From IMG/VR virus record IMGVR_UViG_3300007516_000014, positions 5,987 through 69,986 of that record: 64,000 nucleotides of DNA; one strand, 5' to 3'. The notes under the pieces are model-generated. The model ran no database searches. It was given only the letters and a program-made list of their open reading frames with translations, and was not told the origin of the DNA. Position numbers and translations under genes: made by a program. Positions 2-62,930 of the stretch are shown in pieces (position 1 is the first letter of the stretch; each line of letters starts with the position of its first letter). Origin of the DNA: a virus.

Positions 2-313
2 ACGCACGGTATGTTCGTGTGCACGTCGCTGTTCGAGAGCTTCGGAATTTACTATCTGGAGCTGCTGGCCAGCGGCGTCGTGGGTGTCTTCGCGGACGCC
101 CCGTGGCACAAGTCGCTGCTTCCTGGCTATCGCTACACGGCAAAGTCGCAGCATCTGTCAGCCATGATGATGCACGTCCGGGAAAACTACGACGAGGCAC
201 GGCGATATTTGCTCGACGAGGTCCGTCCGGCTATCATCGAGAAGTATTCGATCAGCCGGTTCAACGCCGAGCTGCTTGCTCACGCCCAAGGAGGGGTATC
301 ATGGGTAGCCTAG
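2..313 (+). CDS. GT-B glycosyltransferase, C-terminal fragment (5' end outside window); possible DNA-modification enzyme
   Basis: Frame open from the window edge; FVCTSLFESFGIYYLELLASG carries the E-x7-E motif of GT4/GT-B enzymes. Confidence 0.7.
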   Translation, partial: THGMFVCTSLFESFGIYYLELLASGVVGVFADAPWHKSLLPGYRYTAKSQHLSAMMMHVRENYDEARRYLLDEVRPAIIEKYSISRFNAELLAHAQGGVSWVA

Positions 314-1146
314 ACAAGACTGAGAGCATTCGGCGCGAGAACGTGTCCATCGACCTGCTCGTCGTCAATTCGATGAACCCGAACAAGATGAAGGCGCGCG
401 AGTTCGATCTGCTCGTCGACAATATCCAGCGCACCGGGTTGACCGACCCGATCCTTGTCCGCCCCATCGAAGACGGCAAGTATCGCATCGTTGGAGGCCA
501 TCATCGGTTCGATGCCGCGAAGTATCTTGACTTCAAGGAGGTGCCTTGCACGATCATCACGGATGTTGAGTTCGACGACGACGCGGAGAAGTTCCAGCTC
601 GTTCGTATGAACGCCATCCACGGCAAGCTCGACCCGGAAGCGTTCTTCAAGCTCTACAACTCGATGGCCGGCAAGTACCAGGACGACGTCTTGCAGGAGA
701 GCTTCGGCTTCGCGGACGACAAGGAGTTCCAACGCCTGATCGCCCAGATGTCCAAGGACATGCCGGACGACATGAAGAAGAAGTTCAAGGCAGCGGCGAA
801 GGAAGTGAAGACCATCGACGGCCTCGCCAAGCTGATGAACGAGCTGTACACGAAGTACGGCGATACACTCCCGTATGGCTTCATGGTCATCGATTTTGGC
901 GGCAAGGAGTCGATCTGGCTCCAGGTGACCAAGCCGACCATGAAGGCCGCCCACGCTTTCGGCGAGGTCTGCCGGGCCAACAAGCGCAGCATGGACGACA
1001 TGATGGGCGCGCTTATGCAATCAATTGCACTGCCGGAAGCGGCGGAGTTGCTGGCCTCGCTGCTCGCCATGACCCCGGAGATGGTAATTCCGGATAACGT
1101 GGGTGACCCGACCAAGAACAACATTCACGAAGCCAACCAGTTCTAG
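301..1146 (+). CDS. ParB/Srx-like N-terminal domain protein
   Basis: NPNKM...LVDNIQRTGLTDPILVR...YRIVGGHHRFDAA has the ParB GxxRxxA motif. Start moved to ATG 301, after the SD hairpin. Confidence 0.85.
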   Translation: MGSLDKTESIRRENVSIDLLVVNSMNPNKMKAREFDLLVDNIQRTGLTDPILVRPIEDGKYRIVGGHHRFDAAKYLDFKEVPCTIITDVEFDDDAEKFQLVRMNAIHGKLDPEAFFKLYNSMAGKYQDDVLQESFGFADDKEFQRLIAQMSKDMPDDMKKKFKAAAKEVKTIDGLAKLMNELYTKYGDTLPYGFMVIDFGGKESIWLQVTKPTMKAAHAFGEVCRANKRSMDDMMGALMQSIALPEAAELLASLLAMTPEMVIPDNVGDPTKNNIHEANQF

Positions 1147-1221
1147 AACAGGGTAGTCAGCAGCCTTCACGACTGCATGACCATCAACTACCCACGGACT
1201 TGAAGCCCAAGGAGGGGCGGG

Positions 1222-1830
1222 ATGGCTAAGAAGAAGCCGGCAATGTGGACGACCTTGGTACCGGTAGAGACGGTAGAGGAAATCCATCGTCAGTTGTTTG
1301 CCGGTATCGGCCCAGGAGAATTGGCCACGAAAGTCCAGTCCATGAGCCCGCCCATGTTCGCGGACAGGACTGCCCACACCGTTACCCAGTGGTTCAACGA
1401 CTACAGGAAAAAATCGGTCCTGCACGAGCAGACCAAGGCGCTGCTGGAAGCGGCGAAGTTCCGGGGCACATCGGCGCTCCGCAAGCGCGTCGATGTCGTG
1501 GGCGAGATGGAAGAACTGGTCGCCATCAATCGCGCCAGGCTGGCCAAAGGCCTGAACACAGAGGCGGGATCTCCGATCCCCCTGGATGCGGTGTCCAAGC
1601 TGGCCCTGGCGCTGGGCGTCACGCTGGAGCGTCTGGCGCACTTGTATCTGGAGACAGGGCTCATCCATCGGGTGCCCAAGCAGGTGAACGCCACGCTGAC
1701 CACGCTCATGGGCGGACGCCCGGTCTTCGAGTTCACTGAGGAGGAGTCGCGTCGCTTCTCCGAAGCCAGGATGCTGGAGCACGTCGCCGAGGTCATCGAC
1801 ATCGAGGAAGGTAACGATGTCGGCATTTAA
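1222..1830 (+). CDS. Probable terminase small subunit
   Basis: 202-aa helical-looking protein overlapping the start of the large terminase; positional call. Confidence 0.5.
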   Translation: MAKKKPAMWTTLVPVETVEEIHRQLFAGIGPGELATKVQSMSPPMFADRTAHTVTQWFNDYRKKSVLHEQTKALLEAAKFRGTSALRKRVDVVGEMEELVAINRARLAKGLNTEAGSPIPLDAVSKLALALGVTLERLAHLYLETGLIHRVPKQVNATLTTLMGGRPVFEFTEEESRRFSEARMLEHVAEVIDIEEGNDVGI

Positions 1831-3787
1831 GGCGGCGCGTGCCCTGATCGCCAAGGTGCCGATTAGCGGTGAAATCGTGCTGTCCCACGCTACGGCGACG
1901 AAGAACGAAGCGGGCGTCATCTCCTCAATCATGACGCCACGCCAGACGTATGACTATGTCATGCGAGCCGCGACCCATTTTCAGGCGCTCGCGAAGGAGC
2001 CGTCCGACAAGTACATCGTGTTCCCGGTCGACATCCAGACGTTCATCGAGAGCGAGAAGTTCCTGAACCGGCGGGACATTATCTATCCGAAGATCGTCAC
2101 CGAGCTGATGGAGCTGAACTCGGGCCGGTACACGGAAGCGGTGTTCACCGGAGCCATCGGCACAGGCAAGACCACGGCAGCCCTGCTGACCATGGCCTAC
2201 CAGCTGTATCTGGTTTCGTGCCTCAAGAACCCGCACGCGACGTTCACACCGCCGCTCGATCCGGCGTCGGAAATCCTGTTCGTGTTCCAGTCGCTGAACG
2301 CCCGAGTGGCCAAGCAGAACGACTACACGCGTTTTAGATCGATGATCGCCAACTCGCTGTACTTTGCGGAGCACTTCCCGTTCGACCAGGGCCTGGAGTC
2401 GGAGATGATTTTCCCGAACCGGATAGTCGTCCGCCCGCTCTCGGGTGGCGTGAATGCCGCCATCGGATCGAACGTCTACTCGGCCCTGATTGACGAGATT
2501 AACTTCATGCAGCGTGTAGAAAACTCCAAGCACGCAACGGACGGTGGCGTCTTCGACCAGGCGATGGAGATGTACAACGGCCTGTCTCGTCGTCGCGAGT
2601 CCCGCTTCATGTCCAACTACGGGAAGATGGACGGTATGGTGTGCCTGGTATCGTCCAAGCGATACCCAGGTGAGTTCACGGAGCGCAAGGCCAAGGAGGC
2701 CGCTCGGCAGATCGAGAAGACAGGGCGCACCGGAATTTTCATCTATGACCGGCGCGTGTGGGAGGTAAAGCCGGATGGCTCGTTCCGCCCTGAGCGCTTC
2801 AACCTGTTCCTCGGAGACCTGTCGCGCAAGCCGCACATCATGGCAGAGGACGAGGTCGTCGATGCGCGAGACCAGCACCTCGTATTAGCGGTGCCCATGG
2901 AGTTCAGGCATCAGTTCGAGAACGACATGCTGTCGGCCATTCGTGACGTAGCCGGGTCGTCTACCTTCGCCATGAACCCGTATATCATCAACCCGGAGAA
3001 GATTGCGGAGGGCTTCGGGACGTACCAGTCGATCCTATCGATCTCCGAGACCGACTTCGTGACGTCACGCCCGTCGATCTATCCGAACCGTATCCTCAAG
3101 CCCAACGAGCCGCGCTACGCGCACGTTGACTTGTCGGTGTCCGGTGACAGCTCGGGAGTGGCCATAGGCTACGTGGATGGCTTCACGTCGGTGCCTCGCG
3201 GCGACAACACGGCGGAGATGATGCCCAAGATCAACTTCGACATGATCCTGCGCGTCAAGCCTCCCCGCAATGGCGAGATCGAATTCGAAAGCATCCGAAC
3301 CCTGTTCTACAAGCTCAAGGAGCTTGGCATGAACCTGAAGTGGGTCAGCTTCGATACGTACCAGTCTCGCGACAGCATGCAGTTGCTGCGGCAGAAGGGC
3401 TTCGTGACAGGCTCGGTGTCCATGGACACGGACTCGACCGCGTACGACGTCATGAAGTCTGCGTTCTACGACGGGCGCGTGAAGGCACCGGAGCACGACC
3501 TGGCCCGCGCTGAGATCGTTCGCCTTGAGCGCGATCCGTTGACTGGTCTCATCGATCATCCACCCGACTGGTCGAAGGACTGTTCGGACGCGATGGCCGG
3601 TGTAGTGTTTGGGCTGACGTATCGACGTGAACTGTGGGTCCGCCACGGAGTGTCGATGCGGGATATGCTGGTGAAGCTGGCCGACCGCGAAGCGAAGAAG
3701 GACGCGAAGTCCGAGATCGCAGCAAAAGCTGGACTTAACCGTCATGTAAGCTACGCAGATGTTGTTGGCCACGGAGGGCCGTCATGA
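1817..3787 (+). CDS. terL: Terminase large subunit
   Basis: Walker A GAIGTGKT, Walker B ALIDEINF, RNase H-like nuclease motifs AHVDLS, SFDTYQS and KDCSDAMAG. Confidence 0.9.
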   Translation: MSAFKAARALIAKVPISGEIVLSHATATKNEAGVISSIMTPRQTYDYVMRAATHFQALAKEPSDKYIVFPVDIQTFIESEKFLNRRDIIYPKIVTELMELNSGRYTEAVFTGAIGTGKTTAALLTMAYQLYLVSCLKNPHATFTPPLDPASEILFVFQSLNARVAKQNDYTRFRSMIANSLYFAEHFPFDQGLESEMIFPNRIVVRPLSGGVNAAIGSNVYSALIDEINFMQRVENSKHATDGGVFDQAMEMYNGLSRRRESRFMSNYGKMDGMVCLVSSKRYPGEFTERKAKEAARQIEKTGRTGIFIYDRRVWEVKPDGSFRPERFNLFLGDLSRKPHIMAEDEVVDARDQHLVLAVPMEFRHQFENDMLSAIRDVAGSSTFAMNPYIINPEKIAEGFGTYQSILSISETDFVTSRPSIYPNRILKPNEPRYAHVDLSVSGDSSGVAIGYVDGFTSVPRGDNTAEMMPKINFDMILRVKPPRNGEIEFESIRTLFYKLKELGMNLKWVSFDTYQSRDSMQLLRQKGFVTGSVSMDTDSTAYDVMKSAFYDGRVKAPEHDLARAEIVRLERDPLTGLIDHPPDWSKDCSDAMAGVVFGLTYRRELWVRHGVSMRDMLVKLADREAKKDAKSEIAAKAGLNRHVSYADVVGHGGPS

Positions 3788-4429: not shown

Positions 4430-4472
4430 GGCCTAGCTAAGGTCCGCATCGGAACCAAGGAGGGTTTTTCCG

Positions 4473-4691
4473 ATGCGGGTTTTAGATCTCAAGCGTGAAC
4501 TTCGTCAGCCGCACATTCACGGCGTGAATGCTGTTGTGTCGATCCCGGCTGGTCCCGGCATGACACCGCAGCCCGTCGTGGTGGCGGTGACGAAGACTGC
4601 CATGAAGAGGGCCGTCGCCCATCTTCCTAGCAAGACGGAAATTTTCGTGACAGTCGAAGGCAATCAGCTTACGATTGGCGAAATCAAGTAG
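4473..4691 (+). CDS. Hypothetical protein
   Basis: SD hairpin plus ATG; 72 aa. Confidence 0.7.
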   Translation: MRVLDLKRELRQPHIHGVNAVVSIPAGPGMTPQPVVVAVTKTAMKRAVAHLPSKTEIFVTVEGNQLTIGEIK

Positions 4692-4707
4692 ACCAAGGAG
4701 GGTCGCA

Positions 4708-6780
4708 GTGAGCAAATTTCATTCTTTCGGACCGTTCATCCAGCCAGGCAATCTGGCGGTGGATGACAAGATGCACCTCGGTGGCAAGGGTGCTGGTCTG
4801 GTCCGCATGTCGTCCATGGGCATCCCGGTGCCTCCCGGCTTCACGATCCCCACTCCGTTCTGTGCGGCCTTCGAGAAGGCGGCGCTCGATAAGGGCGGCT
4901 TCATCGACAGCCTGATGAAGGATGTCCACGAGCACATGCAGGAAGTAGAGGCCGCGCTGGGCTATGCCCCGCTCGTCTCGGTCCGCTCGGGCGCACCGGT
5001 CTCGATGCCGGGCATGATGGACACGATCCTCAACGTCGGCCTGACGAACGCCACCATGGACGCCTGGAAGGCACGGATTGGCGAGCGAGCGGCGCTCGAC
5101 AGCTACCGCCGACTGATCCAGATGCTGGGCTGCACAGCCTACGGCGTCGACCACTCGCTGTTCGAAGCGGAGCTGGTTGCTGCTCGGACTGCCGCGAAAG
5201 TGGCCGCCGACAATCAGCTGAACCCCGTGCAACTGGTTGCACTGATCGCCAAGTACCTCACCATCTTCCACAAGCAGACCGGTTCGACGTTCCCCGACAC
5301 TGTCGAGGCGCAGCTTCACGCGTCCATCGGAGCGGTGTTCGCTTCGTGGCACAACGAGCGGGCCGTGATCTATCGCAAGATGAACGGGATCGATGCCTCG
5401 ATGGGCACTGCGGTGACCGTCCAGGCAATGGTGTTCGGCAACATGAATGACAACAGCGGGTCGGGCGTCCTGTTCTCCCGGAACCCGTCGACCGGCGTCA
5501 ACGAGCTGTACGGTGAGTTCCTGCCGAATGCTCAGGGCGAGGACGTGGTAGCCGGCATCCGGACGCCCCTCCAGCTGATCGACATGCAGCCGCTGTGGCC
5601 GGAAGTTCTCGACCAGCTGAACGATATCGCCTGCAAGCTCGAAGGCGAGTATGCGGATATGGTCGATCTGGAGTTCACGGTGCAGGACAAGGTTCTGTAT
5701 CTGCTCCAGTGCCGGCCCGGTAAGCGCGGTGCCATGGCCGCCTTCCGGATTGCGCGTGATCTGGAGCACGAGACGGTGATCGACAAGAAGACGGCGATCA
5801 GCCGCCTGTCCTCCAGGGAGTACAAACTGACCCGCCAGCCGGTGGTCGATCCCAAGTTCAAGGTTGCTCCCGTGGCGACCGGGCTGTTCGGTTCGACGGG
5901 TGTAGCGGTGGGCAAGCCGGTCTACACGGCAGCTGCTGCAATTGATTGCAAAGAACCCTGCATCCTGGTCACTCACGAGACCGACCCGGATGATGTCGGC
6001 GGAATGTACGCCGCCAAGGGTGTTCTGACCGCCACCGGTGGCCAGACCTCCCACGCTGCGGTGGTAGCGCGCGGAATGAACAAGCCCTGCGTGGTCGGCT
6101 GCATCGGGATCGTCGAGCTGATCAAGAAGTCTCAGGCGAAGATGGTGACCATCGACGGCGCGACGGGCCAGGTATGGCTCGACGTGGTTGTACCGGTTGT
6201 GGATAATTCGGCGGATGAAGCGGTGGCTGAAATCGTCAGCTGGATCGTCAAGTCCGACGTTAGCCCGGTCTGCAAAATACCTTCGAGCGGTCCGGCCATT
6301 GTGCAGGTCGCTGACTGGAAGATGGAGCAGCTCAACATAATGGCCCTTATGTCGCACCCGGACCCTTCGCAGCTCACCTTGGATTTCAGGGCGGCGACAC
6401 AAATCAGTTGCGAGGAAGACGAACCTCTGGCAAGCCTCTACGGAGACGTTGCGCCAATCGGTACACCTGATTTAAGGTGGCTGCTAAAGGCTATTGAGGG
6501 CCTGGGAAGTGCAATGTCTGGTCTCACCGTTATTGGCGCTCCGAGTTCCGAGAAGATGAAAAAGGCTGGCGTGATATTCCTGGCTCGTCCGGTATCGACT
6601 CTGGTCGATATGCTGGACGGGGGTGACATGGCTGTCAGCCCTGCCTTCTCGGCGGTGCTGGAGATGGCCGTGTATGACAAGATCGCTGGCCTGCTCAAGG
6701 ACGCGGGCAAGGAGATCAAAGCGACGGTGCCCGTCTATGGGTTGCCCGCTGAGTATCAGGTTTTCAAGGCATTGAGTTAG
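4708..6780 (+). CDS. PPDK-like dikinase (ATP-grasp plus phospho-His swivel domains, no PEP/pyruvate domain)
   Basis: LGGKGAGL, PVPPGFTI, VSVRSGAPVSMPGMMDTILNVG, QAMVFGN, NAQGEDVVAGIRTP, DLEFT, GGQTSHAAVVARG. The last ~190 aa do not resemble the PPDK TIM barrel. GTG 4708 follows the SD hairpin. Confidence 0.9.
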   Translation: MSKFHSFGPFIQPGNLAVDDKMHLGGKGAGLVRMSSMGIPVPPGFTIPTPFCAAFEKAALDKGGFIDSLMKDVHEHMQEVEAALGYAPLVSVRSGAPVSMPGMMDTILNVGLTNATMDAWKARIGERAALDSYRRLIQMLGCTAYGVDHSLFEAELVAARTAAKVAADNQLNPVQLVALIAKYLTIFHKQTGSTFPDTVEAQLHASIGAVFASWHNERAVIYRKMNGIDASMGTAVTVQAMVFGNMNDNSGSGVLFSRNPSTGVNELYGEFLPNAQGEDVVAGIRTPLQLIDMQPLWPEVLDQLNDIACKLEGEYADMVDLEFTVQDKVLYLLQCRPGKRGAMAAFRIARDLEHETVIDKKTAISRLSSREYKLTRQPVVDPKFKVAPVATGLFGSTGVAVGKPVYTAAAAIDCKEPCILVTHETDPDDVGGMYAAKGVLTATGGQTSHAAVVARGMNKPCVVGCIGIVELIKKSQAKMVTIDGATGQVWLDVVVPVVDNSADEAVAEIVSWIVKSDVSPVCKIPSSGPAIVQVADWKMEQLNIMALMSHPDPSQLTLDFRAATQISCEEDEPLASLYGDVAPIGTPDLRWLLKAIEGLGSAMSGLTVIGAPSSEKMKKAGVIFLARPVSTLVDMLDGGDMAVSPAFSAVLEMAVYDKIAGLLKDAGKEIKATVPVYGLPAEYQVFKALS

Positions 6781-6789
6781 GAGCTTCAG

Positions 6790-7068
6790 ATGGGTTTGGT
6801 TCTCACCATTCGACAGGGCGAAGACTTCTTCGTCGACAACGATCAGTTCTTTTTGGAGAAGATCATATCGGAAGACGAAGTCCGCATCTTCCGCCCCAAG
6901 GATGGGAAGAAGATCACGGCGTCGACCAAAGACATGACCGATATTCAAGACGACGTGAGCGTCCAAGTCGCGGATCGCATCACGAGCAAGGCAGCCCGTC
7001 TGGTTATCGAGGCACCACGGACGAAGCTGATACTGACTGGTGTTAAATTTCGTACACCGCGAACATAG
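6790..7068 (+). CDS. CsrA/RsmA-like RNA-binding protein (apparently two fused CsrA units)
   Basis: LVLTIRQGEDFFV resembles CsrA LILTRRVGETLMI; DDVSVQV...ARLVIEAPRTKLIL resembles DEVTVTV...VRIGVNAPKEVSVH. Confidence 0.65.
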   Translation: MGLVLTIRQGEDFFVDNDQFFLEKIISEDEVRIFRPKDGKKITASTKDMTDIQDDVSVQVADRITSKAARLVIEAPRTKLILTGVKFRTPRT

Positions 7069-7108
7069 GGAGACATCGCGGCTAACCCTGAAAGACTGGG
7101 ACTGATAC

Positions 7109-7408: not shown

Positions 7409-7465
7409 CCATTTGCAACAAGCCTGGCCTCAAGCCACAGTAGCTGCCTAACCAAGGAGGGTTTT

Positions 7466-7975
7466 GTGAACAAACACTATGTACCATCGCGTCCCCAGCC
7501 TGTCGGCTTCATGCCGATCCCGGTCGGCCATGGGCGAATGTTCGCCATCGAAGGTGGACCGTTCATCGCGTTCGACCGCAACACGGCGAAGGACGCGTTC
7601 GCCTTGTGCCTCGAAGCCCGGTCAGGAAACGTGGCGACGGCCAGCGTGGCGCTCGATGTGCCGGACTTCAGCACGCCCGATCCCAAGGGCCTCGACAGCG
7701 CGCTCTCCAAGATGGTCGACGCGCTCTACAAGGGCCGCCCGGCGTACATCGGCTGCATGGCAGGGCAGGGCCGAACAGGCCTTGCGATGGCCTGCCTCGC
7801 CCGCGAGTTCGGCGTCATCGAGCCGATCAAGCACGTCCGCCGTTACTACACGTCCCATGCGGTGGAGACGTCCAATCAGGCAGCCTTCGTCAAGGACACC
7901 CCGCTGCCCAAGACCAGGTGGCGCATCCGGATCAACCGTCTCCGCGCTTCTTTGCCCTGGCTCTGGATTTCTTAA
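7466..7975 (+). CDS. Protein-tyrosine/dual-specificity (CX5R) phosphatase
   Basis: VPDF general-acid loop, YIGCMAGQGRTG P-loop, AVETSNQ. Confidence 0.85.
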   Translation: MNKHYVPSRPQPVGFMPIPVGHGRMFAIEGGPFIAFDRNTAKDAFALCLEARSGNVATASVALDVPDFSTPDPKGLDSALSKMVDALYKGRPAYIGCMAGQGRTGLAMACLAREFGVIEPIKHVRRYYTSHAVETSNQAAFVKDTPLPKTRWRIRINRLRASLPWLWIS

Positions 7976-8034
7976 TTGACACTGGTTGGCTCCTAGCCAC
8001 AGTCGAAGACTGAAACGAGACCAAGGAGGGTCCC

Positions 8035-10040: not shown

Positions 10041-10096
10041 CTCTTGCTTATGCTCGTCTAATAGCTAGGGTTCGGCGGAGACCAAGGAGGGTCCTG

Positions 10097-10939: not shown

Positions 10940-10941
10940 TC

Positions 10942-11178
10942 GTGGTCAAGGCAATCAAGGACATGGAAGTTGGCGAGGCGATGGTAGGCAAGCCGCTGAT
11001 GGTCAACATGAGTAGCGAGCCTGTCGTCCTGACCCTCATCGAGAAACGCGCTGAGGGCGAGGCTAAATTCAAGGCCACGTACATGGGCATCGACATCGGT
11101 GACTTCGTCAGTGAGCCCAAGGGCAAGAAGACGTTGTGGCGGCGAACGACCAAGCCCAGAAAGGCGGTGGCGTCATGA
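10942..11178 (+). CDS. Hypothetical protein
   Basis: Tightly packed ORF, coupled to the next gene (ATGA). Confidence 0.65.
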   Translation: MVKAIKDMEVGEAMVGKPLMVNMSSEPVVLTLIEKRAEGEAKFKATYMGIDIGDFVSEPKGKKTLWRRTTKPRKAVAS

Positions 11179-11639
11179 GCCATACATCTGAGTTCTACCC
11201 GTTGGCCGACGCGCTAGCGATGCGGTTCAAGGTTGACCTGGAGGTCTTCCAGCTCGAAGGATCAGGCGATGTCACTGTCGACATCGGCCAGTTCAGCATC
11301 AAGCTGTCCCTCACCACGATCAGCTCAGTCATCGACAATGATGGTTCTGTCGCCATGCTGATCGAAACAAAATCTGGCAACCTTGGGTTGTTCGTGGTAT
11401 ATCGACCGTCCACCAAGAGGATCGAAGTGTCGCCCGTCGACCTTTCGATCTTGCCCAAGGAGGGGCAGGTCTTCTTCGAAGATTTAACCGTCATCTCGGT
11501 GGCTGTCGCCCGCGAACTGTCTCTGTCCATGATGCGAGCCTATCGGACGTTCGTCATGGACTACAAACAAGGATGGTCTGAAGTATGTCACGAACACTCG
11601 TCTTCTGGTACGCCCAGCACGGAACCGCCCACGCCCTGA
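11175..11639 (+). CDS. Hypothetical protein
   Basis: ATG 11175 overlaps the upstream stop. Confidence 0.65.
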   Translation: MSHTSEFYPLADALAMRFKVDLEVFQLEGSGDVTVDIGQFSIKLSLTTISSVIDNDGSVAMLIETKSGNLGLFVVYRPSTKRIEVSPVDLSILPKEGQVFFEDLTVISVAVARELSLSMMRAYRTFVMDYKQGWSEVCHEHSSSGTPSTEPPTP

Positions 11640-13954: not shown

Positions 13955-14114
13955 AGCTGCTACGTTGTCGCCCTTGGGTCGTAGCCTACCATTACCCAGG
14001 GGCCAAAGTAGGCGAAGCCAAAATCTCTTGTGCAATCAATTGCATTTTCTTTGACTTGGTCTGTTGGGGAGCTACGAAGAAGGTGCCCCAACGGGCCGAC
14101 CAAGGAGGGCTCAA

Positions 14115-16357: not shown

Positions 16358-16361
16358 GACC

Positions 16362-16854: not shown

Positions 16855-16856
16855 CC

Positions 16857-17081: not shown

Positions 17082-17107
17082 AAGTAGTCATGGCCAAGGA
17101 GGGCTTG

Positions 17108-17970: not shown

Positions 17971-17994
17971 CAGCTACCGGCCAAGGAGGGCCAA

Positions 17995-19161
17995 GTGAAC
18001 CGTCCACTGCACCAGGCGTACAACGCTATCGAGGACACGATGCAGGCCGCAGTGCGCGCCGCCGTGGACACGCGTGCCCAGAAATTGCTCGACGCCGTGC
18101 GCAAGGCCTTGGCCAGCGATGACTTCAAGGAGGCCCACGATCTCGTCAACCGGTTTACGTTGGGTCCGGCCGTAGAGGCCAGCAAGACCAAGTGGCGGCA
18201 GCTCGGTATCTCGGCCCTGTTGTTTGGAGCTTCCCGGCACAAGCCCGTAGCGGAGACCGGACCAGTCAAAGGCAAGAAGGTCCCGGCGATTGTCGACCTG
18301 GCGGTGACCCAGCTCGGCAACATGCTCAAGCACAACTGCGAGCTTCGTATTCGAGCGGCGGCCCTGTTGCTGATCGGCACGTGGGAAGACCAGCATACGA
18401 AGTTTGTCGCCCTGCACAAGCAGGACCGTGATCCAGCTACAGGAGAGTTTGTTAGTAGTGGAGCGTCTGACCAGGTCACTTCGGAGAAGTTTGCCTGGGG
18501 TTCGGGCGACCTGATCGTGACCAAGTCTGTGCAATCAATTGCAAAAGCTGATGACGACCTGACGGCCGACGAGATTGGTGCCGCACTCGCGGCGGCTGTC
18601 ATGGGTAACGCCAAGATGGTGTCCGACATTGGCGGCAACCTCATCACCAGCCGGCTGGCATCGTACGGCTTTCTGGCGGAAGCGCGGGCTGACGGCGTCA
18701 CGACGTACAGGATCAGCGCCGTGCTGGACGACCGGACCTGCCCAGTCTGTGAGAGCCTGGACGGTACGGAGTTCGAAGTCGACAAGGCGTTCGCCCGCGT
18801 GGAAGCGGCGCTGGGCATGGACGACCCGGACGATCTGAAGGTAGCAGCTCCGTGGCCCGACAAGGATGAAGACCTGGCTATTTCTCCGGAGGAGCTTCAG
18901 GCCGCTGGTTATGACGCCCCGCCGTTTCATCCCGGCTGCCGCTGCATTCTGGTCCCGGTCGAAGACAAGCCCGCCGAAAAGGAGTCGACCCCGACGACAG
19001 CACCAAAAGACGAGTTCACTGACGAAGCAGCCCCCGAGATTGCCCCAGTGTTGTCGACTGCCGATTTCATGACGCTGTCCTACGCCGAGAAGATCTCGGC
19101 CATAGCCGAAGGCATAGCCCCAGAAGGCTGGCAGGCGCTGCTGGCAGGCGCTGCTGGCTGA
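17995..19161 (+). CDS. Head morphogenesis protein (SPP1 gp7/MuF-like)
   Basis: SAVLDDRTCPVCESLDG...PPFHPGCRCILVP. Confidence 0.88.
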   Translation: MNRPLHQAYNAIEDTMQAAVRAAVDTRAQKLLDAVRKALASDDFKEAHDLVNRFTLGPAVEASKTKWRQLGISALLFGASRHKPVAETGPVKGKKVPAIVDLAVTQLGNMLKHNCELRIRAAALLLIGTWEDQHTKFVALHKQDRDPATGEFVSSGASDQVTSEKFAWGSGDLIVTKSVQSIAKADDDLTADEIGAALAAAVMGNAKMVSDIGGNLITSRLASYGFLAEARADGVTTYRISAVLDDRTCPVCESLDGTEFEVDKAFARVEAALGMDDPDDLKVAAPWPDKDEDLAISPEELQAAGYDAPPFHPGCRCILVPVEDKPAEKESTPTTAPKDEFTDEAAPEIAPVLSTADFMTLSYAEKISAIAEGIAPEGWQALLAGAAG

Positions 19162-20681: not shown

Positions 20682-20750
20682 CCGGATACTACTTGCACCT
20701 CTGACGTTGTGTGCTATCCATGTAAGCACACAAACCACGGAGGGTTTAGT

Positions 20751-22933: not shown

Positions 22934-23027
22934 CCCAGAACCTACCTCACTTCCGCAACCTCAAGAACTTTACTGACGTCTCCTAACCCCGTTTAAGAAC
23001 GGACCAGCCCAAGGAGGGGCTCGAAAA

Positions 23028-24089: not shown

Positions 24090-24112
24090 ATTGTCGGCCA
24101 AGGAGGGCTGTT

Positions 24113-34429: not shown

Positions 34430-34456
34430 TCGGGCTGCCTGACCCAAGGAGGGGTT

Positions 34457-36196: not shown

Positions 36197-36229
36197 TCTT
36201 TCAACGAATTCGATCAAGGAGGATCGATT

Positions 36230-43043: not shown

Positions 43044-43074
43044 TTCTCAAAGTGCCCAAGGAGGGGCATCGACC

Positions 43075-46535: not shown

Positions 46536-46656
46536 TTTCGTGCAATCAGTTGCACGACGAAATCCTGGTCGCAGACTCATTTACACCTAGCCTTAGACTC
46601 AAAGTATTGTATCTTCGGTTGTGCAATCAGTTGCACAGCACACCAAGGAGGGTGGC

Positions 46657-47588: not shown

Positions 47589-47645
47589 TTCCTATTGCCC
47601 CAGGTACGGACATGACTATGCTCTCCGAACTGCCAAGGAGGGCAC

Positions 47646-48830: not shown

Positions 48831-48895
48831 TCTTTGTCAATACCAGCCCTATCGTCCGTCCCGCTTCCAACAACTCATGGCCAAGGAGGGCCACT

Positions 48896-49444: not shown

Positions 49445-49445
49445 G

Positions 49446-50444
49446 TTGGCTCTTACCGCTCACCTCGACCGTTGTGTCGAGGTAGCGGGGAGCGACCGTG
49501 TCGGTCATTTCCTGCACCGTCTCGTGCGGTGGCAACCGCATACCAACGTAATACGTAGCGGCCGTGCCTGGGTAGGCTGGCCACGCTCAAGATGGCAGAA
49601 GGAGCTGAAGCTCTCGGCCGACCAGTTCCGACTGGTCTTGTTGAAGGCCGCCGCTGCCGGCCTGATCTACCGGTGCCAGATGCTTCGCGGTGGACTGAAT
49701 GTGCTGCACATAGCACTCACCGACGAGTGCATCCTGAAGCTAGTAAACGGCGTCGAACCCCTCACTCCAGTGAGGGAAAAACCCCTCACTCCAGTGAGGG
49801 GAAAACCCCTCACTCTATATAAGAACCCTAAGAAAGAACCCGGAGAAAGTACCAAGATAGCGACCGACTTCGCGGTCGCGAGTTCGGAGTCCGAGAAAAC
49901 CATCGAGAAGAGTTCCGGGAACGTAGTCCTGTTCCCAGGTCAAGGAGGACCGATGAACAAGCTCAGCGCTGATATTGGAAAGAAGTTTGCGGACGCTTCG
50001 TCGTACGCCCAGAAAATCGACACGCTCAAGCCGGACAGGACCGCGTCCTTGGTTCAGGCGTGGAGGGGGTCCACCAAGGCCACGGTTACCGACAAGATGG
50101 CCGGGCAGTTGAAGTACCTGCTCAAGACCCGGCCCAACGCTCTGAAGATCGTCCGGTTCGCCCTGAAGAATTGGGGCGATCTGACGTACCGGGCCGAGAA
50201 GCATCACGGTGCGTTCAAGTCTCCCAGCGCTCCGAACCTCGGCTATCTGGTAAAGTTCGCCCATGTAGCGGTGGAGCTGATGAACCAGGCCGCCAGCAAG
50301 CCGGTCGTGGTTGTGGCCCCGCCAGTGCAATCAATTGCACAGACAGCCCCGGTCAAGGTCAAGGTCAAGCCCGCGACCTTCGCCGAGATCCTCGCCATAG
50401 AGGCAGAACTGGAAGCCCTCGAAGCATTGAAGGCCGCATCGTGA
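49446..50444 (+). CDS. Replication initiator-like protein (internal start at 49953)
   Basis: N-terminal wHTH-like segment, central iteron-encoded repeats, position upstream of loader and DnaB. Confidence 0.65.
   Translation: MALTAHLDRCVEVAGSDRVGHFLHRLVRWQPHTNVIRSGRAWVGWPRSRWQKELKLSADQFRLVLLKAAAAGLIYRCQMLRGGLNVLHIALTDECILKLVNGVEPLTPVREKPLTPVRGKPLTLYKNPKKEPGESTKIATDFAVASSESEKTIEKSSGNVVLFPGQGGPMNKLSADIGKKFADASSYAQKIDTLKPDRTASLVQAWRGSTKATVTDKMAGQLKYLLKTRPNALKIVRFALKNWGDLTYRAEKHHGAFKSPSAPNLGYLVKFAHVAVELMNQAASKPVVVVAPPVQSIAQTAPVKVKVKPATFAEILAIEAELEALEALKAAS
49756..49815. repeat. 24-bp iteron-like tandem repeat, 2.5 copies; putative replication origin
   Basis: AACCCCTCACTCCAGTGAGGGRAA; each unit is itself palindromic; an A/T-rich run follows. 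Confidence 0.8.
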
Positions 50445-53298: not shown

Positions 53299-53355
53299 TC
53301 TCTTGCATCATGCCTGTCCAAGCGTAGAACACGTTACCAATCAAGGAGGATTGCG

Positions 53356-53880: not shown

Positions 53881-53900
53881 TTACTGCAATCAATTGCACA

Positions 53901-55399: not shown

Positions 55400-55473
55400 C
55401 GGAGTATAAAGGATATGTTCTGCGCACCCTAGTTCACCGCGCTGTCCACGGAAGGTCATGGAGGACCATCACA

Positions 55474-56307: not shown

Positions 56308-56397
56308 TTCGCTTGCAGGGCGCGGCTGTGCAGTTGTGCAATTGATTGCACAGCCGTCCTCACCAAGGAGGGTGATCTGGTTAGTATAAATTCGCTG

Positions 56398-58782: not shown

Positions 58783-58843
58783 ATTCAAATTGCCTTCTGC
58801 TCGCAACCGAGTAGAAGGAACTGTTCGCATCAAGGAGGATGGC

Positions 58844-60883: not shown

Positions 60884-61791
60884 TGGCCGGGTTCCAGTTC
60901 ATCACGAACCAGATGAAGAAGCATCAAGCCAAGGGCACGAAGTACGCTCTACACAAGATGCTGCGCGGTTGGCGGCCTGGTCGCGCGCACAAAAGCGTCC
61001 ACGCTTCAGCGGTGACCAAAGGCGGCACTGGCGAGTTCTGCGCCCGCGAGTACGCGATCAGGGACAAGGAGCCGCACAAGGTCCCCGACGAGTTCCTGGA
61101 TACGTCACATAGGCTCACGTTTGCCATCGGTCACTACGTACAGGACCAGGTGATCAACTGGCTGTCAGATGGCAATTACGCCATCACCAACTGGGTGTGC
61201 CAGTCGTGCAAGACGTTGCATGAGCGGTGCAAGCGCCCGTCAAAATGCCACGCGTGTGGCTGCGGAGCGTTCAAGGCCGACGAGATCAGGCTGATAAGCG
61301 CGGTGTCCGGTATTGGCGGTGGCATCGACGTGTTTGCCCAGCTGGGCGAGCCGAAGCTCCGTATCGTCGAAATCAAGACGATGGCGCCCGATGAGTTCAA
61401 GAAGCTGGTAGCGCCGCTAGCGGAGCACCGTCTCCGGACCAATCTGTACATGAGGATAGCCGCCGAGAGTGATGATCCGTGGAAGACGCGTATCAACGTC
61501 GATCAGGCGTACGTCCTGTACTGTTCGAAGGGTGGCTTCGGGACGCTCGATACGAACCTCAAGGAGATGGGGATCGACGACAAGTTCTCGCCCTTCAAGG
61601 AGTTCCTGATCGACCGCGACGACACGCAGACCGAGATGCTTCACCAGCGGGCGGTACGGCTGAAGGAATTCCGGGAGAAGTCGAAAGGTATGCCTGCGGG
61701 GCTTTGCCCGACCGCGTTTACCAAGCGGGCACAAAGCTGTATCGTCACGAGTGCTTGTTTCTCAGGGAAGTATCCAGCCAAGGAGGACTGA
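60883..61791 (+). CDS. Cas4/RecB-like exonuclease with Zn-ribbon insert
   Basis: HAS...CAR, GGID, VEIKT, LYM, C-terminal C...C...C; CQSC..C..CHAC insert. Confidence 0.8.
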   Translation: MAGFQFITNQMKKHQAKGTKYALHKMLRGWRPGRAHKSVHASAVTKGGTGEFCAREYAIRDKEPHKVPDEFLDTSHRLTFAIGHYVQDQVINWLSDGNYAITNWVCQSCKTLHERCKRPSKCHACGCGAFKADEIRLISAVSGIGGGIDVFAQLGEPKLRIVEIKTMAPDEFKKLVAPLAEHRLRTNLYMRIAAESDDPWKTRINVDQAYVLYCSKGGFGTLDTNLKEMGIDDKFSPFKEFLIDRDDTQTEMLHQRAVRLKEFREKSKGMPAGLCPTAFTKRAQSCIVTSACFSGKYPAKED

Positions 61792-61792
61792 C

Positions 61793-62050: not shown

Positions 62051-62092
62051 TTTTTGTGCAATCAGTTGCACAGCCTGTCCAAGGAGGGACGC

Positions 62093-62356
62093 ATGGCCAT
62101 CACGACAATACCGGACCAATTCGACATCGACGACGGCCACCGCTCTAGCACTCGGAGCACCTCGTCCCATGGAGCGGCGTTCAAACGCCAGGGTGCGTCG
62201 GTTCTCAAGGCCAGGGCCGCCCAAAGACGGTTGATGCAGGTGCCGCTCCTGTCCAGAGACGAAGAACTGGACGCCATCGAGAAGTACAAAGCCAAGCACG
62301 GCGTCGTGCGGTGCCCCACGGCGTTCGTTCTGCCTTCGCAGATGAGCAGCAAGTGA
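62093..62356 (+). CDS. Hypothetical protein
   Basis: Hairpin GTCC-AAGGAG-GGAC before ATG 62093. Confidence 0.65.
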   Translation: MAITTIPDQFDIDDGHRSSTRSTSSHGAAFKRQGASVLKARAAQRRLMQVPLLSRDEELDAIEKYKAKHGVVRCPTAFVLPSQMSSK

Positions 62357-62883
62357 GGTGCCTTGGCCTCGACATCAGCGTCACCCGCACCGGCTTGGCA
62401 GTATGCTCCGTCGAGGATGACAAGCTGACGCTGGAGCACAACGACAGCATCAAGGTCCCGGAGAAGAAGGGTATCAACAGGGCGCACAAGATAGCCGCGA
62501 GGGTAGCCGATGCGATCATCCGATATGAACCCAACATCGTCTCGATTGAAGGTTACGCGTTCGGCAATCGCTTCAGCCTTGCCACGCTCGTCGAGGTGGG
62601 TACGTTGGTGCGTTGGGCAGTATTTTCGTCGGGCCTGTTCTACATCGACCCGTCGCCCAAAAGTTTGAAGAAGTTCGTCACGACCAGTGGCAACGCCGAC
62701 AAGAAGATGATGATGGCACACGTTCTGAAGAACTGGGGCATCAAAGCCAGCAACCATGATGAGGCAGACGCGATTGGTCTGGCAGCCATGGGACTCGCTT
62801 ACACTCGCGCGCTGAAGGTTGCCGGGTGGAGGCGGGATATATTAATGAGCTGCAAGAAACATTCTCTTGCAACACGAGATTAA
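62353..62883 (+). CDS. ruvC: RuvC-like Holliday junction resolvase
   Basis: LGLDIS..TG, IEGY, P..LKKFVT.SGNADK, HDEADA. Confidence 0.88.
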   Translation: MRCLGLDISVTRTGLAVCSVEDDKLTLEHNDSIKVPEKKGINRAHKIAARVADAIIRYEPNIVSIEGYAFGNRFSLATLVEVGTLVRWAVFSSGLFYIDPSPKSLKKFVTTSGNADKKMMMAHVLKNWGIKASNHDEADAIGLAAMGLAYTRALKVAGWRRDILMSCKKHSLATRD

Positions 62884-62930
62884 CAGCGTAGAACAGTTGC
62901 ACAGATTTAACGGTCAAGGAGGACCACTCG

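What the first reader, a model, noticed from the sequence alone, without database searches (positions are those of the whole stretch)
284..62925. Genome-wide CsrA/Rsm-type hairpins at ribosome binding sites: a candidate phage translational regulon
Seen: about 29 sites share the loop ANGGAG (AAGGAG, with ACGGAG at 3771 and 20737 and ATGGAG at 55458), closed by C-G. The stems differ in sequence but remain complementary: GCCC/GGGC 1205, AACC/GGTT 7450, GACC/GGTC 4691, GGCC/GGCC 17979, AGCCC/GGGCT 23006, TCGATC/GATCGA 36210, CACC/GGTG 46641, TGCC/GGCA 47631, GGTC/GACC 49938, CAATC/GATTG 53338, CATC/GATG 58828, GTCC/GGAC 62077. This covariation points to selection on RNA structure, which plain SD pairing does not need. 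28 sites precede start codons in packaging, head, tail and replication genes; two (14098, 61775) have a stem mismatch. Known: CsrA/RsmE proteins bind CANGGANG with ANGGAN as a hexaloop over the SD. Inference: one CsrA-fold protein, phage- or host-encoded, controls translation of a large share of the genome, either as a global brake or as a required activator of occluded RBSs.
Basis: partly seen in the sequence, partly recalled or inferred. Interest (0 to 1): 0.93.

Follow-up and report, generated by a model that had tools for sequence, protein, structure and literature searches.

The report
Loop-displayed ribosome sites across a phage
About thirty genes of this uncultured 70-kb phage carry their ribosome-binding site in the six-base loop of a tiny co-varying RNA hairpin shaped like the textbook docking site of the regulator CsrA, and the phage encodes a divergent CsrA-like protein that may read them, but no binding has been tested.

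Summary
On the + strand of the window, 24 of 116 ANGGAG hexamers are flanked by at least 4 Watson-Crick pairs (28 by at least 3). Dinucleotide shuffles of the whole genome give a mean of 0.4. The genome's minus strand has 0 of 28. Stem pairs 2-4 co-vary and pairs 5-6 do not, so the unit is a 4-bp stem with an A-N-G-G-A-G hexaloop, 3-11 nt before start codons.

Orthologous genes in relatives (Rhodobacter phage RcZahn, Rhizobium phages, IMG/VR contigs) keep the hairpin with compensatory stem changes.

Gene 6790-7068 belongs to a mostly viral, about 90-aa family related to CsrA and RsmN. It is a syntenic core gene of this clade.

In hairpin-first scans of IMG/VR, 11 of 23 hairpin-rich records carried this family, against 2 of 95 hairpin-poor ones. 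An unrelated 235-kb phage combines the same hairpins with a canonical CsrA. There are counter-examples in both directions, and this window's protein lacks the Arg44 equivalent.

RNA-structure selection is shown. A phage CsrA-type regulon is the best but unproven reading (about 0.5). The main rival is a cis-only hairpin that displays the ribosome site (about 0.33).

This scan noted the same pattern earlier on at least 16 other genomes (AI notes).

The parts
285..296 (+). SD hairpin CCC-AAGGAG-GGG before ATG 301 (ParB-like nuclease)
1205..1218 (+). SD hairpin GCCC-AAGGAG-GGGC before ATG 1222
3767..3780 (+). SD hairpin GGCC-ACGGAG-GGCC before ATG 3784
4437..4485 (+). Long hairpin whose apex is the SD hairpin AACC-AAGGAG-GGTT (4453-4466). 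The long stem also buries ATG 4473.
   Evidence: -27 kcal/mol, z -6.1, 0 of 200 shuffles fold as well
4691..4704 (+). SD hairpin GACC-AAGGAG-GGTC before GTG 4708 (PPDK-like kinase)
   Evidence: the hairpin is conserved with other stems in orthologues
6790..7068 (+). Gene for the 92-aa CsrA/RsmN-like protein (P0001), the candidate reader. Its own ribosome site (TAGGAG) has no stem.
7450..7463 (+). SD hairpin AACC-AAGGAG-GGTT before GTG 7466 (Tyr-phosphatase-like)
8019..8032 (+). SD hairpin GACC-AAGGAG-GGTC before ATG 8035
10080..10093 (+). SD hairpin GACC-AAGGAG-GGTC before ATG 10097
11452..11467 (+). Hairpin TGCCC-AAGGAG-GGGCA inside ORF 11136-11639. No canonical start follows at normal spacing.
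14098..14111 (+). Imperfect SD hairpin GACC-AAGGAG-GGCT (2 inner pairs only) before ATG 14115
17093..17104 (+). SD hairpin GCC-AAGGAG-GGC before TTG 17105 / ATG 17108
17979..17992 (+). SD hairpin GGCC-AAGGAG-GGCC before GTG 17995 (head morphogenesis-like)
20732..20747 (+). SD hairpin AAACC-ACGGAG-GGTTT before ATG 20751
23006..23021 (+). SD hairpin AGCCC-AAGGAG-GGGCT before ATG 23028 (major capsid protein)
24097..24108 (+). SD hairpin GCC-AAGGAG-GGC before ATG 24113
34442..34455 (+). SD hairpin ACCC-AAGGAG-GGGT before ATG 34457
36210..36227 (+). SD hairpin TCGATC-AAGGAG-GATCGA before ATG 36230
43053..43068 (+). SD hairpin TGCCC-AAGGAG-GGGCA before ATG 43075 (tail-fibre-like)
46641..46654 (+). 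SD hairpin CACC-AAGGAG-GGTG before ATG 46657 (nucleoside 2-deoxyribosyltransferase-like)
47631..47644 (+). SD hairpin TGCC-AAGGAG-GGCA before ATG 47646 (ATPase)
48878..48893 (+). SD hairpin TGGCC-AAGGAG-GGCCA before ATG 48896
49938..49951 (+). SD hairpin GGTC-AAGGAG-GACC before ATG 49953
53338..53353 (+). SD hairpin CAATC-AAGGAG-GATTG before GTG 53356
55454..55467 (+). SD hairpin GGTC-ATGGAG-GACC before ATG 55474
56360..56375 (+). Hairpin TCACC-AAGGAG-GGTGA, 27 nt before ATG 56398. An in-frame CTG lies at 56377.
58828..58841 (+). SD hairpin CATC-AAGGAG-GATG before ATG 58844
61775..61790 (+). Imperfect SD hairpin CAGCC-AAGGAG-GACTG (one internal mismatch) before ATG 61793
62077..62090 (+). SD hairpin GTCC-AAGGAG-GGAC before ATG 62093
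62912..62925 (+). SD hairpin GGTC-AAGGAG-GACC before ATG 62931

Best explanation
Each element is an RNA hairpin on the phage mRNA: a 4-bp (3-6 bp) stem of free sequence that presents the Shine-Dalgarno core A-N-G-G-A-G as a hexaloop, 3-11 nt before the start codon. It is the standard ribosome site of about a third of the genes, mainly those with a free intergenic leader. Shown: the hairpins exist, are far above chance, are strand-specific, co-vary, and are kept by compensatory change in relatives. Shown: the phage encodes a divergent CsrA/RsmN-fold protein that is a syntenic core gene of the hairpin-bearing clade. Inferred: that protein (6790-7068) binds the loops in the way RsmA, RsmE and RsmN bind ANGGAN hexaloops, probably one hairpin per molecule through one site built from its N-terminal strand 1 and its C-terminal strands 4-5. 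By competing with the 30S subunit it would tune, and most likely repress or time, translation of the hairpin genes as it accumulates. The direction of the effect and its timing are not known.
For: Motif match: a G/C stem with an AAGGAG, ACGGAG or ATGGAG hexaloop equals the ANGGAN hexaloop of the RsmZ-2 hairpin that RsmA and RsmN bind, with the N base looped out (PMC3791407). Loop position 1 is A in 107 of 113 hairpins from 7 phages. Position 2 is free (A 60, C 38, T 8, G 7). A C at position 2 breaks pairing with the anti-SD, yet the A at position 1 stays. Protein: Pfam CsrA E 2e-4. 50 of 71 family members hit Pfam CsrA at E<=0.01. The family profile's nine best PDB matches are all CsrA, RsmE, RsmF or RsmN chains. 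The AF2 model has pLDDT 95. The Foldseek top hit is RsmF with probability 0.98. VIA-align gives RsmN Z 4.7, rmsd 2.2 over 50 aa at 32% identity, and CsrA Z 4.5, rmsd 2.2 over 55 of 57 aa. Synteny kinase / CsrA-like / small ORF / phosphatase holds in RcZahn, Y1_11 and TM16. Co-occurrence: hairpins and gene occur together in this phage, RcZahn, Y1_11, TM16, G116 and 6 of 7 IMG/VR loci. Two other Rhodobacter capsulatus phages lack both. In hairpin-first scans the family is in 11 of 23 hairpin-rich records against 2 of 95 hairpin-poor ones, Fisher p 9e-8. Independent lineage: the 235-kb phage G001 is unrelated (2 of 54 proteins give weak hits). It has 35 of 372 hairpins on the + strand against 2 of 75 on the minus strand, 27 of them before starts. 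It encodes a canonical CsrA at 89.8 bits. Canonical CsrA is found in only 83 of 50,697 phage records and in 0 of 46 control records.
Against: No binding or expression data exist. P0001 scores below Pfam's cut-off (21.6 against 27 bits), and a six-frame PF02599 search of the genome finds nothing at E<=0.001. P0001 has Thr at the Arg44/Arg62 position, which is essential for RsmA and RsmN binding (PMC3791407). 51 of 71 family members have Arg there. Gene without hairpins: Stenotrophomonas phage DLP_5 (homologue at E 8e-9; 4 of 162 sites, about chance), locus L019, Pseudomonas F116 (two CsrA-like genes, no ribosome-site hairpins) and Vibrio 1.232.O. Hairpins without gene: the complete 46-kb G002 has 5 of 35 hairpins and neither the family nor Pfam CsrA. 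Most of the co-occurrence comes from one super-clade, so it is largely one evolutionary event. Hairpins sit on genes of every class (nuclease, kinase, phosphatase, capsid, tail, ATPase), so no obvious regulatory logic appears. Canonical CsrA dimers usually bridge two sites, whereas here there is one per ribosome site.
Confidence: 0.5

Rival explanations
1. Cis-only display hairpin. The short local stem keeps the Shine-Dalgarno core single-stranded in a loop and insulates it from long-range pairing in 60%-GC mRNA, giving context-independent, efficient initiation. No dedicated protein is needed, and the CsrA-like gene does something else.
For: In 86-nt contexts the loop's mean unpaired probability is 0.78 at 24 hairpin sites against 0.49 at 15 other ANGGAG start sites. 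The hairpins are weak, -1.6 to -7.6 kcal/mol, so a ribosome can open them. They favour genes with intergenic leaders: median gap 65 nt against 13 nt with rough gene calls. They occur on all gene classes. G002 has them without any CsrA-like gene. DLP_5, L019, F116 and Vibrio 1.232.O have the gene without them. P0001 lacks the Arg44 equivalent.
Against: Two other phages of the same host (RcSimone-Hastad: 0 of 127 sites; RcTiptonus: 1 of 39) do not use such hairpins, so this is not a host-imposed style. Position 1 of the loop is A in 107 of 113 hairpins even when position 2 is C (38 cases), which breaks anti-SD pairing. The strict hexaloop register and the excess of CsrA-type genes, including canonical CsrA in the unrelated G001, are unexplained.
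Confidence: 0.33
2. The hairpins are read by a host factor, either the host's own CsrA/Rsm protein or another RNA-binding protein. They would either couple phage translation to host physiology or soak up host CsrA, as the RsmZ and CsrB sponge RNAs do.
For: The loops equal the canonical CsrA/Rsm site. About 30 copies sit on presumably abundant mRNAs. G002 has hairpins but no CsrA-type gene of its own.
Against: The host is unknown and host CsrA was not tested. The cultured relatives infect Rhodobacter and Rhizobium. From recall only, many Alphaproteobacteria lack CsrA. Other phages of R. capsulatus lack the hairpins.
Confidence: 0.08
3. The hairpins are mRNA processing or stability elements: 5' protective stem-loops after cleavage, or targets or shields for an SD-directed endoribonuclease of the T4 RegB kind (recalled).
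For: They lie at cistron starts in long polycistronic + strand transcripts. Three sit where no canonical start follows at normal spacing: window 11457, window 56365 and genome position 3122.
Against: No RNase gene was linked to them. The stems are only 3-6 bp. The position relative to starts is as tight as for ordinary SD sequences, 3-11 nt. No transcript-end data were examined.
Confidence: 0.05
4. There is no structure. The motif is only a long conserved SD-like word (CCAAGGAGGG), or a chance palindrome, or a DNA-level site.
For: In this phage the two inner pairs are mostly C-G, so part of the 'stem' is a fixed word.
Against: Outer pairs co-vary. T-A replaces C-G at pair 2 in 7 sites. Relatives use G-C, A-U and U-A closing pairs and AU-rich stems. 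Orthologous sites show compensatory changes. The base after AAGGAGG does not follow the anti-SD complement. There are 0 of 28 on the minus strand.
Confidence: 0.01

Closest known systems
CsrA/RsmA/RsmE/RsmN binding to ANGGAN hexaloop hairpins (RsmZ-2 hairpin, hcnA ribosome site; Morris et al. 2013, PMC3791407, passages read)
   Same: A G/C-rich short stem carries an A-N-GGA-N hexaloop. The N base is free. The site overlaps the Shine-Dalgarno sequence. A small beta-rich CsrA-fold protein is encoded by the same genome.
   Different: Here about 30 near-ideal single sites sit on a phage's own genes rather than in a host regulon with sponge RNAs. The candidate reader is a 92-aa divergent form with about 32 extra residues, predicted as a compact monomer. 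In this phage it lacks the Arg44 equivalent. Binding is untested.
RsmN/RsmF (Pseudomonas aeruginosa), CsrA relatives with an insertion between strands 2 and 3
   Same: It is the best structural match: Foldseek top hit at probability 0.98, and VIA Z 4.7 at 32% identity over 50 aa. An insertion follows strand 2, and strands 1 and 3-5 are conserved.
   Different: The insert here is predicted as three extra beta strands, not a helix. Single-sequence phmmer finds no PDB CsrA. The family is mostly viral.
Start-Associated Sequences (SAS) of Cluster K mycobacteriophages (Pope et al. 2011, PMC3203893, passages read)
   Same: A repeated element containing AGGAG lies 3-7 bp before start codons of many phage genes, in one orientation. 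Its outer parts are symmetric (GGG...CCC). Its function is unknown, and the authors raised a host- or phage-encoded binding partner.
   Different: SAS is a fixed 13-mer restricted to non-structural genes of the right arm. Here the stems vary freely and co-vary, the loop is a hexaloop, structural genes are included, and a candidate reader gene is present.
Phage translational operators: MS2 coat protein with the replicase hairpin, and T4 RegA
   Same: A phage protein binds RNA at ribosome sites of phage genes to repress their translation.
   Different: MS2 has one operator hairpin. RegA recognises loosely defined unstructured sites. Neither uses a CsrA fold or a genome-wide co-varying hairpin.

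Membership tests
CsrA protein family (Pfam PF02599), for protein 6790-7068 | Score at or above Pfam's gathering cut-off (27 bits) | tested here: not met
   21.6 bits, E 2e-4, residues 51-81 on profile positions 13-42. A six-frame search of the genome finds nothing at E<=0.001. At family level, 50 of 71 relatives hit at E<=0.01, best 8e-8.
CsrA protein family (Pfam PF02599), for protein 6790-7068 | CsrA fold: strands 1-5 with an edge-strand RNA site | tested here: inconclusive
   AF2 pLDDT 95.1. RsmF is the Foldseek top hit but at E 0.07. VIA gives RsmN Z 4.7 and CsrA Z 4.5, each with rmsd 2.2, while generic beta sandwiches score Z 7. The profile's nine best PDB sequence matches are all CsrA or Rsm chains, E 0.003-0.06.
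CsrA protein family (Pfam PF02599), for protein 6790-7068 | Arg44 (RsmN Arg62), essential for RNA binding | tested here: not met
   The aligned residue is Thr83 in P0001. In the family it is Arg in 51, Lys in 3 and Thr in 6 of 71. The role of Arg44/Arg62 is from PMC3791407.
CsrA protein family (Pfam PF02599), for protein 6790-7068 | Strand-1 motif (L-x-L-T-R-R-x-G-E) with a basic residue at position 7 | tested here: met
   P0001 reads LVLTIRQGE. Column 8 is R in 32 and K in 21 of 71. L3 and L5 are nearly invariant.
CsrA protein family (Pfam PF02599), for protein 6790-7068 | Intertwined homodimer with two RNA sites | not tested
   Only a monomer was modelled. The model is compact, and a CsrA chain superposes on residues 37-92, which fits a one-chain form. 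No complex job was run.
CsrA/Rsm RNA target site, for the hairpins | GGA in the loop of a short hairpin, with the ANGGAN hexaloop as consensus | tested here: met
   The consensus is from PMC3791407.
CsrA/Rsm RNA target site, for the hairpins | Overlap with the Shine-Dalgarno sequence or start region of the regulated gene | tested here: met
   25 of 28 window sites lie 3-11 nt before a canonical start.
CsrA/Rsm RNA target site, for the hairpins | Demonstrated binding by a CsrA-family protein | not testable with these tools
   Needs EMSA, ITC or CLIP.
Mycobacteriophage SAS | Conserved 13-mer 5'-GGGATAGGAGCCC with at most 2 deviations | tested here: not met
   Stems differ from site to site and the loop is AAGGAG. 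The definition is from PMC3203893.
Mycobacteriophage SAS | Sits a few nt upstream of start codons, in one orientation | tested here: met
Rfam families | Any curated RNA family at its gathering score | tested here: not met
   0 matches in the window.

The most novel reading that the evidence does not exclude
Tailed phages have evolved private CsrA-type translational regulons more than once. In this 70-180-kb super-clade, a one-chain, one-site CsrA derivative reads about 15-45 co-varying Shine-Dalgarno hexaloop operators spread over the genome. An unrelated jumbo phage does the same with a canonical CsrA.
Probability: 0.4. Interest if true: 0.9.

Novelty: new variant of a known kind. Interest (0 to 1): 0.78.

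Why it matters
If the link holds, this is a virus-encoded, genome-wide post-transcriptional circuit built from the best-understood bacterial RNA-binding fold. It has dozens of natural operator variants, which amount to a ready-made compensatory-mutation series, and cultured models to test it in: Rhodobacter phage RcZahn and Rhizobium phages RHph_TM16 and Y1_11. It would add translational control by a CsrA-type protein to phage gene-expression programmes. It could also explain the unexplained start-associated repeats of other phages, and offer compact orthogonal protein/hairpin pairs for synthetic biology. If instead the hairpins act in cis only, they are a natural example of ribosome-site insulation by loop display in GC-rich genomes, which is also of practical use. 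My text searches found no paper describing these hairpins or this protein family: (the RcZahn paper has 0 mentions of Shine-Dalgarno, hairpin, stem-loop or CsrA).

Tried and rejected
Single-sequence searches for relatives of P0001 gave nothing useful. The word-index search found only the protein itself. phmmer against PDB found no CsrA. NCBIfam and PHROGs gave only weak rows.

The search for related loci failed with alignment A1. With A2 it found no confirmed relative in viral contigs. A3 worked.

The genome-contig scan with the tail protein 38817-43040 returned four MAG or genome loci (Thermomonas, a betaproteobacterium, Geobacter, Teredinibacter). None was from Rhodobacterales or Rhizobiales, so I could not test whether the hosts of the cultured relatives have CsrA. 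A literature search for the taxonomic range of CsrA gave nothing usable.

The megablast of the first 20 kb found only two short kinase matches.

Gene-first tests with canonical-CsrA phages were negative for hairpins: F116 and Vibrio 1.232.O.

I rejected 'plain extended SD' and 'DNA palindrome' (see the last rival). I rejected 'occluded RBS' because the SD core is in the loop. The one exception is the long hairpin 4437-4485, which also buries the start codon.

The AAGGAT-loop hairpin inside the CsrA-like gene (6898) is not distinguishable from chance (z -0.9).

I ran no complex prediction, no covariance model, and no sequencing-run or read look-up. Supplementary files of the papers were not requested. 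Figures S3 and S4 of PMC3203893, which list further SAS sites, were therefore not seen.

The gap analysis rests on rough gene calls of my own, which misflag a few hairpin genes (for example 7466). In the hairpin-first scans, loci were classed from only 1-15 kb of each record. Scans 1 and 2 used 'at least 3 hairpins'. Scan 3 used 'at least 3 hairpins followed by a start codon'. L022 and L021, L037, L039, L047, L185, L192, L203, L363 and L373 were not held and so were not searched. Of the 11 loci given records were listed and L252 was not among them.

Full report
WHAT THE WINDOW IS. The window is bases 5987-69986 of a 69,986-bp IMG/VR virus record, estimated 74% complete. GC is about 0.60 and almost all genes are on the + strand.

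PHROG and Pfam hits give a ParB-like nuclease (301-1146), a terminase-like protein (1817-3787) and a PPDK-like kinase (4708-6780). They also give a Tyr-phosphatase-like protein (7466-7975), a family-A DNA polymerase (11585-13954), a portal (14447-16357), a head morphogenesis protein (17995-19161) and a major capsid protein (23028-24029).

By capsid protein the nearest cultured relatives are Rhodobacter phage RcZahn (63%) and Rhizobium phages RHph_TM16 and RHph_Y1_11 (55% and 54%). Next come Stenotrophomonas phages of the DLP_5 group (51%) and Vibrio SIO-2-like phages (about 47%). Gene order around the kinase is the same in RcZahn, Y1_11 and TM16.

- In the window, 24 of 116 + strand ANGGAG hexamers have at least 4 contiguous Watson-Crick flanking pairs, and 28 have at least 3.
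- In the whole record the counts are 27 and 31 of 131. The minus strand has 0 and 2 of 28.
- 200 dinucleotide shuffles give means of 0.44 and 1.53, with maxima of 3 and 7.
- AAGGAG is by far the commonest hexaloop on any stem of at least 4 bp in the genome: 22 of 439.
- Start-proximal sites are bimodal. Of 58 ANGGA[GT] sites followed by a start, 28 have stems of 3-6 bp and 27 have stems of 0-1 bp. Of the 108 other sites, only 8 reach 3 bp.

CO-VARIATION. With the closing C-G fixed, pairs 2-4 are complementary far more often than their column composition predicts: 38, 44 and 39 of 57 against 22.6, 17.4 and 19.2 (p<=5e-5). Pairs 5-6 are at chance. The selected unit is therefore a 4-bp stem.

The pair-counting tool was run on 39 start-proximal sites chosen without regard to stems. 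It gives 63.7% paired cells against 48.3 +/- 2.5 in shuffles, and a co-variation score of 0.449 against 0.204 (0 of 500 shuffles). All slid registers are lower.

COMPARATIVE EVIDENCE FOR STRUCTURE. RcZahn (100 kb read) has 28 of 193 ANGGAG with stems of at least 3 bp. Y1_11 (50 kb read) has 14 of 85. In TM16 (50 kb read), 10 NNGGAG sites have such stems. Their closing pairs include G-C, A-U and U-A.

At orthologous ribosome sites the hairpin persists while the stem changes on both sides:
- Kinase gene: GACC/GGTC in this phage, AACC/GGTT in L013, GGCC/GGCC in L016, and GCC/GGC in RcZahn and L015.
- Phosphatase gene: AACC/GGTT, TGCC/GGCA or GCC/GGC.
- Gene 8035: GACC/GGTC, AACC/GGTT or CACC/GGTG. 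Y1_11 has TTCA/TGAA. TM16 has a CTTTCA-AGGAG-TGAAAG pentaloop form.

A distant 178-kb relative is G116 (GC 0.48; capsid 49%, kinase 44%). It has 22 of 111 hairpins, 21 before starts, with AU-rich stems such as AATCA-ACGGAG-TGATT. Selection therefore acts on the fold and on the loop, not on the stem sequence.

WHAT THE HAIRPIN DOES TO THE SD. Isolated hairpins are weak, at -1.6 to -7.6 kcal/mol. In 86-nt contexts the stem has probability above 0.4 at 18 of 24 sites. The loop bases are on average 0.78 unpaired, against 0.49 at 15 other ANGGAG start sites. The SD core is displayed, not occluded. Only the seventh base (G) of AAGGAGG is in the stem.

One site differs. At 4437-4485 the SD hairpin caps a -27 kcal/mol helix (z -6.1) that also buries ATG 4473.

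Hairpins sit mainly on genes with an intergenic leader: median gap 65 nt against 13 nt (rough gene calls). They occur on genes of all classes.

THE LOOP LOOKS LIKE A CsrA SITE. In 113 hairpins from seven phages, loop position 1 is A in 107. Position 2 is A 60, C 38, T 8 and G 7. C at position 2 breaks anti-SD pairing, yet position 1 stays A.

This is the A-N-GGA-N pattern that RsmA, RsmE and RsmN recognise, with N looped out. The RsmZ-2 hairpin is a G-C stem with an AAGGAU hexaloop (PMC3791407, passages read). A structural reason, such as a position 1 to position 6 A-G contact, cannot be excluded.

THE CANDIDATE READER. The 92-aa product of 6790-7068 hits Pfam CsrA below threshold (E 2e-4; 21.6 against 27 bits).

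An exhaustive HMMER search finds 89 cluster representatives of about 90-100 aa that align end to end. 50 of 71 of them hit Pfam CsrA, the best at 8e-8. The family profile's nine best PDB matches are all CsrA, RsmE, RsmF or RsmN chains (E 0.003-0.06). The alignment is in two pieces: strands 1-2, then strands 3-5.

The AF2 model is confident (pLDDT 95.1) and almost all beta. Foldseek's top hit is RsmF (probability 0.98, E 0.07). VIA-align gives RsmN Z 4.7 (rmsd 2.2, 50 aa, 32% identity) and CsrA Z 4.5 (rmsd 2.2, 55 of 57 residues, on model residues 37-92). Generic beta sandwiches score higher, at Z about 7. ESM Atlas neighbours are mostly viral clusters, some carrying PF02599.

The fit of a whole CsrA chain onto residues 37-92, with residues 1-36 adding four strands, is compatible with a one-chain form that has a single RNA site. 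That is inference only.

Against canonical binding, the Arg44/Arg62 position is Thr83 here. Arg occupies it in 51 of 71 family members.

CO-OCCURRENCE. The family HMM finds the gene in RcZahn (3e-32), Y1_11 (2e-30) and TM16 (1e-30), always after the kinase. It finds a partial, weaker match in DLP_5 (8e-9). Six of seven IMG/VR loci that carry the gene have 3-6 ribosome-site hairpins in 13-20 kb. L019 (GC 0.46) has none.

DLP_5 has no excess (4 of 162). SIO-2 has neither an HMM match (E<=0.1) nor hairpins (0 of 35). Two other R. capsulatus phages, RcSimone-Hastad and RcTiptonus, lack the gene and the hairpins (0 of 127 and 1 of 39 sites in the 50 kb read of each). So the hairpins are not a general habit of phages on that host.

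HAIRPIN-FIRST TEST. I scanned IMG/VR for three hairpin 14-mers and classed the returned loci by hairpin count. Most loci had only the seeded copy.
- Hairpin-rich loci: the family was found in the records of 0 of 4, 5 of 10 and 6 of 9, in total 11 of 23.
- Hairpin-poor loci: 0 of 47 and 2 of 48. Both positives are RcZahn-like genomes of 95-100 kb, and one of them has hairpins elsewhere on the contig.
- Fisher p is 9e-8.
- Among records at least 90% complete, 4 of 6 hairpin-rich ones carry the family, against 2 of 31 hairpin-poor ones.
- Two of the hairpin-rich negatives (G054, G055) are tail-region fragments of RcZahn-like phages.

Caveat: the positives belong to one super-clade, so this is mostly one evolutionary event.

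INDEPENDENT LINEAGES. The most hairpin-rich locus of scan 1 lies in G001, a complete 235-kb phage unrelated to this one (2 of 54 proteins give weak hits). It has 35 of 372 hairpins on the + strand against 2 of 75 on the minus strand, and 27 of the 35 precede starts. It encodes a canonical 67-aa CsrA (PF02599, 89.8 bits).

Canonical CsrA is rare in phages: 83 of 50,697 records by tblastn and 0 of 46 control records.

Against this, G002 is a complete, unrelated 46-kb phage. It has 5 of 35 hairpins with 4-7-bp stems and no detectable CsrA-type gene. The fragment G060 has a canonical CsrA (52.7 bits), but its hairpin evidence is weak.

Cultured phages with canonical CsrA (F116, Vibrio 1.232.O) show no hairpin excess. 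So hairpin-rich genomes tend to carry a CsrA-type gene, but the gene does not predict hairpins.

READING. RNA-level selection is established. The best single explanation is that the loops are operators for the phage's CsrA-type protein (0.5). The steps from motif and co-occurrence to binding and repression are inferred. A cis-only display or insulation role (0.33) explains the exposure of the loop, the weak stems and the counter-examples. It does not explain the A-N-GGA loop rule, the lineage restriction on a shared host, or CsrA in G001. Both could be true together.

A host reader or sponge role (0.08) and an RNA-processing role (0.05) remain possible. Plain SD or chance is excluded.

KNOWN AND NEW. 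The closest described phage element is the Start-Associated Sequence of Cluster K mycobacteriophages. It is a fixed GGGATAGGAGCCC 13-mer before starts of non-structural genes, of unknown function (PMC3203893, passages read).

The RcZahn genome paper mentions neither hairpins nor CsrA (PMC8601537, term search). Searches for phage CsrA with SD hairpins found nothing relevant. No Rfam family matches in the window.

This scan's own notebook holds at least 16 similar notes on other genomes, including a jumbo phage with canonical CsrA. These are AI notes, not independent evidence, but they agree with what I found in IMG/VR.

Noticed in passing
window 1015, 14030, 16133, 18529, 21355, 24275, 28743, 32853, 38019, 44670, 46540, 46621, 50325, 53884, 56336, 62056: 16 copies of the 16-bp palindrome GTGCAATCA(A/G)TTGCAC, both intergenic and intragenic. 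The same ATCAAT, ATCAGT or ATCAAC core on stems of at least 4 bp is enriched in RcZahn (ATCAAC 6, ATCAAT 5) and DLP_5 (ATCAAT 17, ATTGAT 8). It is probably a DNA-level site conserved across the super-clade. Several copies lie just upstream of SD hairpins (46621, 56336, 62056).
   Followed up: partly
window 4437-4485: A -27 kcal/mol hairpin (z -6.1) buries ATG 4473 and carries the SD hexaloop at its apex. It stands at the head of the small-ORF / kinase / CsrA-like block, and is a candidate switch.
   Followed up: partly
window 11452-11467, window 56360-56375, and genome position 3122 (left of the window): Three good hairpins are not followed by ATG, GTG or TTG at normal spacing. The one at 56365 has an in-frame CTG 6 nt after the loop, 21 nt before ATG 56398. 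The one at 11457 lies inside ORF 11136-11639, upstream of the DNA polymerase. These may be non-canonical starts or another use of the hairpin.
   Followed up: no
genome 1-5986 (left of the window): Further ribosome-site hairpins with AGGGAG loops (GACC/GGTC before an ATG, AACC/GGTT before a TTG) and an AAGGAT loop (TACC/GGTA).
   Followed up: no
window 6898 and 32439: AAGGAT-loop hairpins inside coding regions: CCC/GGG inside the CsrA-like gene itself, and GACC/GGTC inside the 1254-aa gene. The first is not better than shuffles.
   Followed up: partly
L408 (Vibrio phage 1.232.O) 42488-44753, and window 4708-7068: In the unrelated Vibrio phage, a canonical CsrA gene lies two genes from a 'PEP-utilizing enzyme' gene. 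Here the CsrA-like gene directly follows a PPDK-like kinase, and two Tyr-phosphatase-like genes follow it in relatives. This may be a recurring kinase/CsrA linkage.
   Followed up: no
L004/L005 (Stenotrophomonas phage DLP_5): DLP_5 ribosome sites of orthologous genes share A(A/T)TGGAG-TGA with only 2 complementary pairs, a different fixed word instead of the hairpin. Its CsrA-like homologue gp082 has a longer insert.
   Followed up: no
L407 (Vibrio phage SIO-2) 5741-6223, minus strand: By eye, the gene after the kinase (VPEG_00064) looks like a very remote positional homologue of the CsrA-like protein: it starts MALRLNV and has AHD in place of APR. The family HMM does not detect it.
   Followed up: no
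L141-L143 (G002, 46-kb complete IMG/VR phage): Five ANGGAG-hexaloop ribosome-site hairpins with 4-7-bp stems, and no detectable CsrA-type gene. This is a lineage in which to look for another reader, or a cis-only case.
   Followed up: partly
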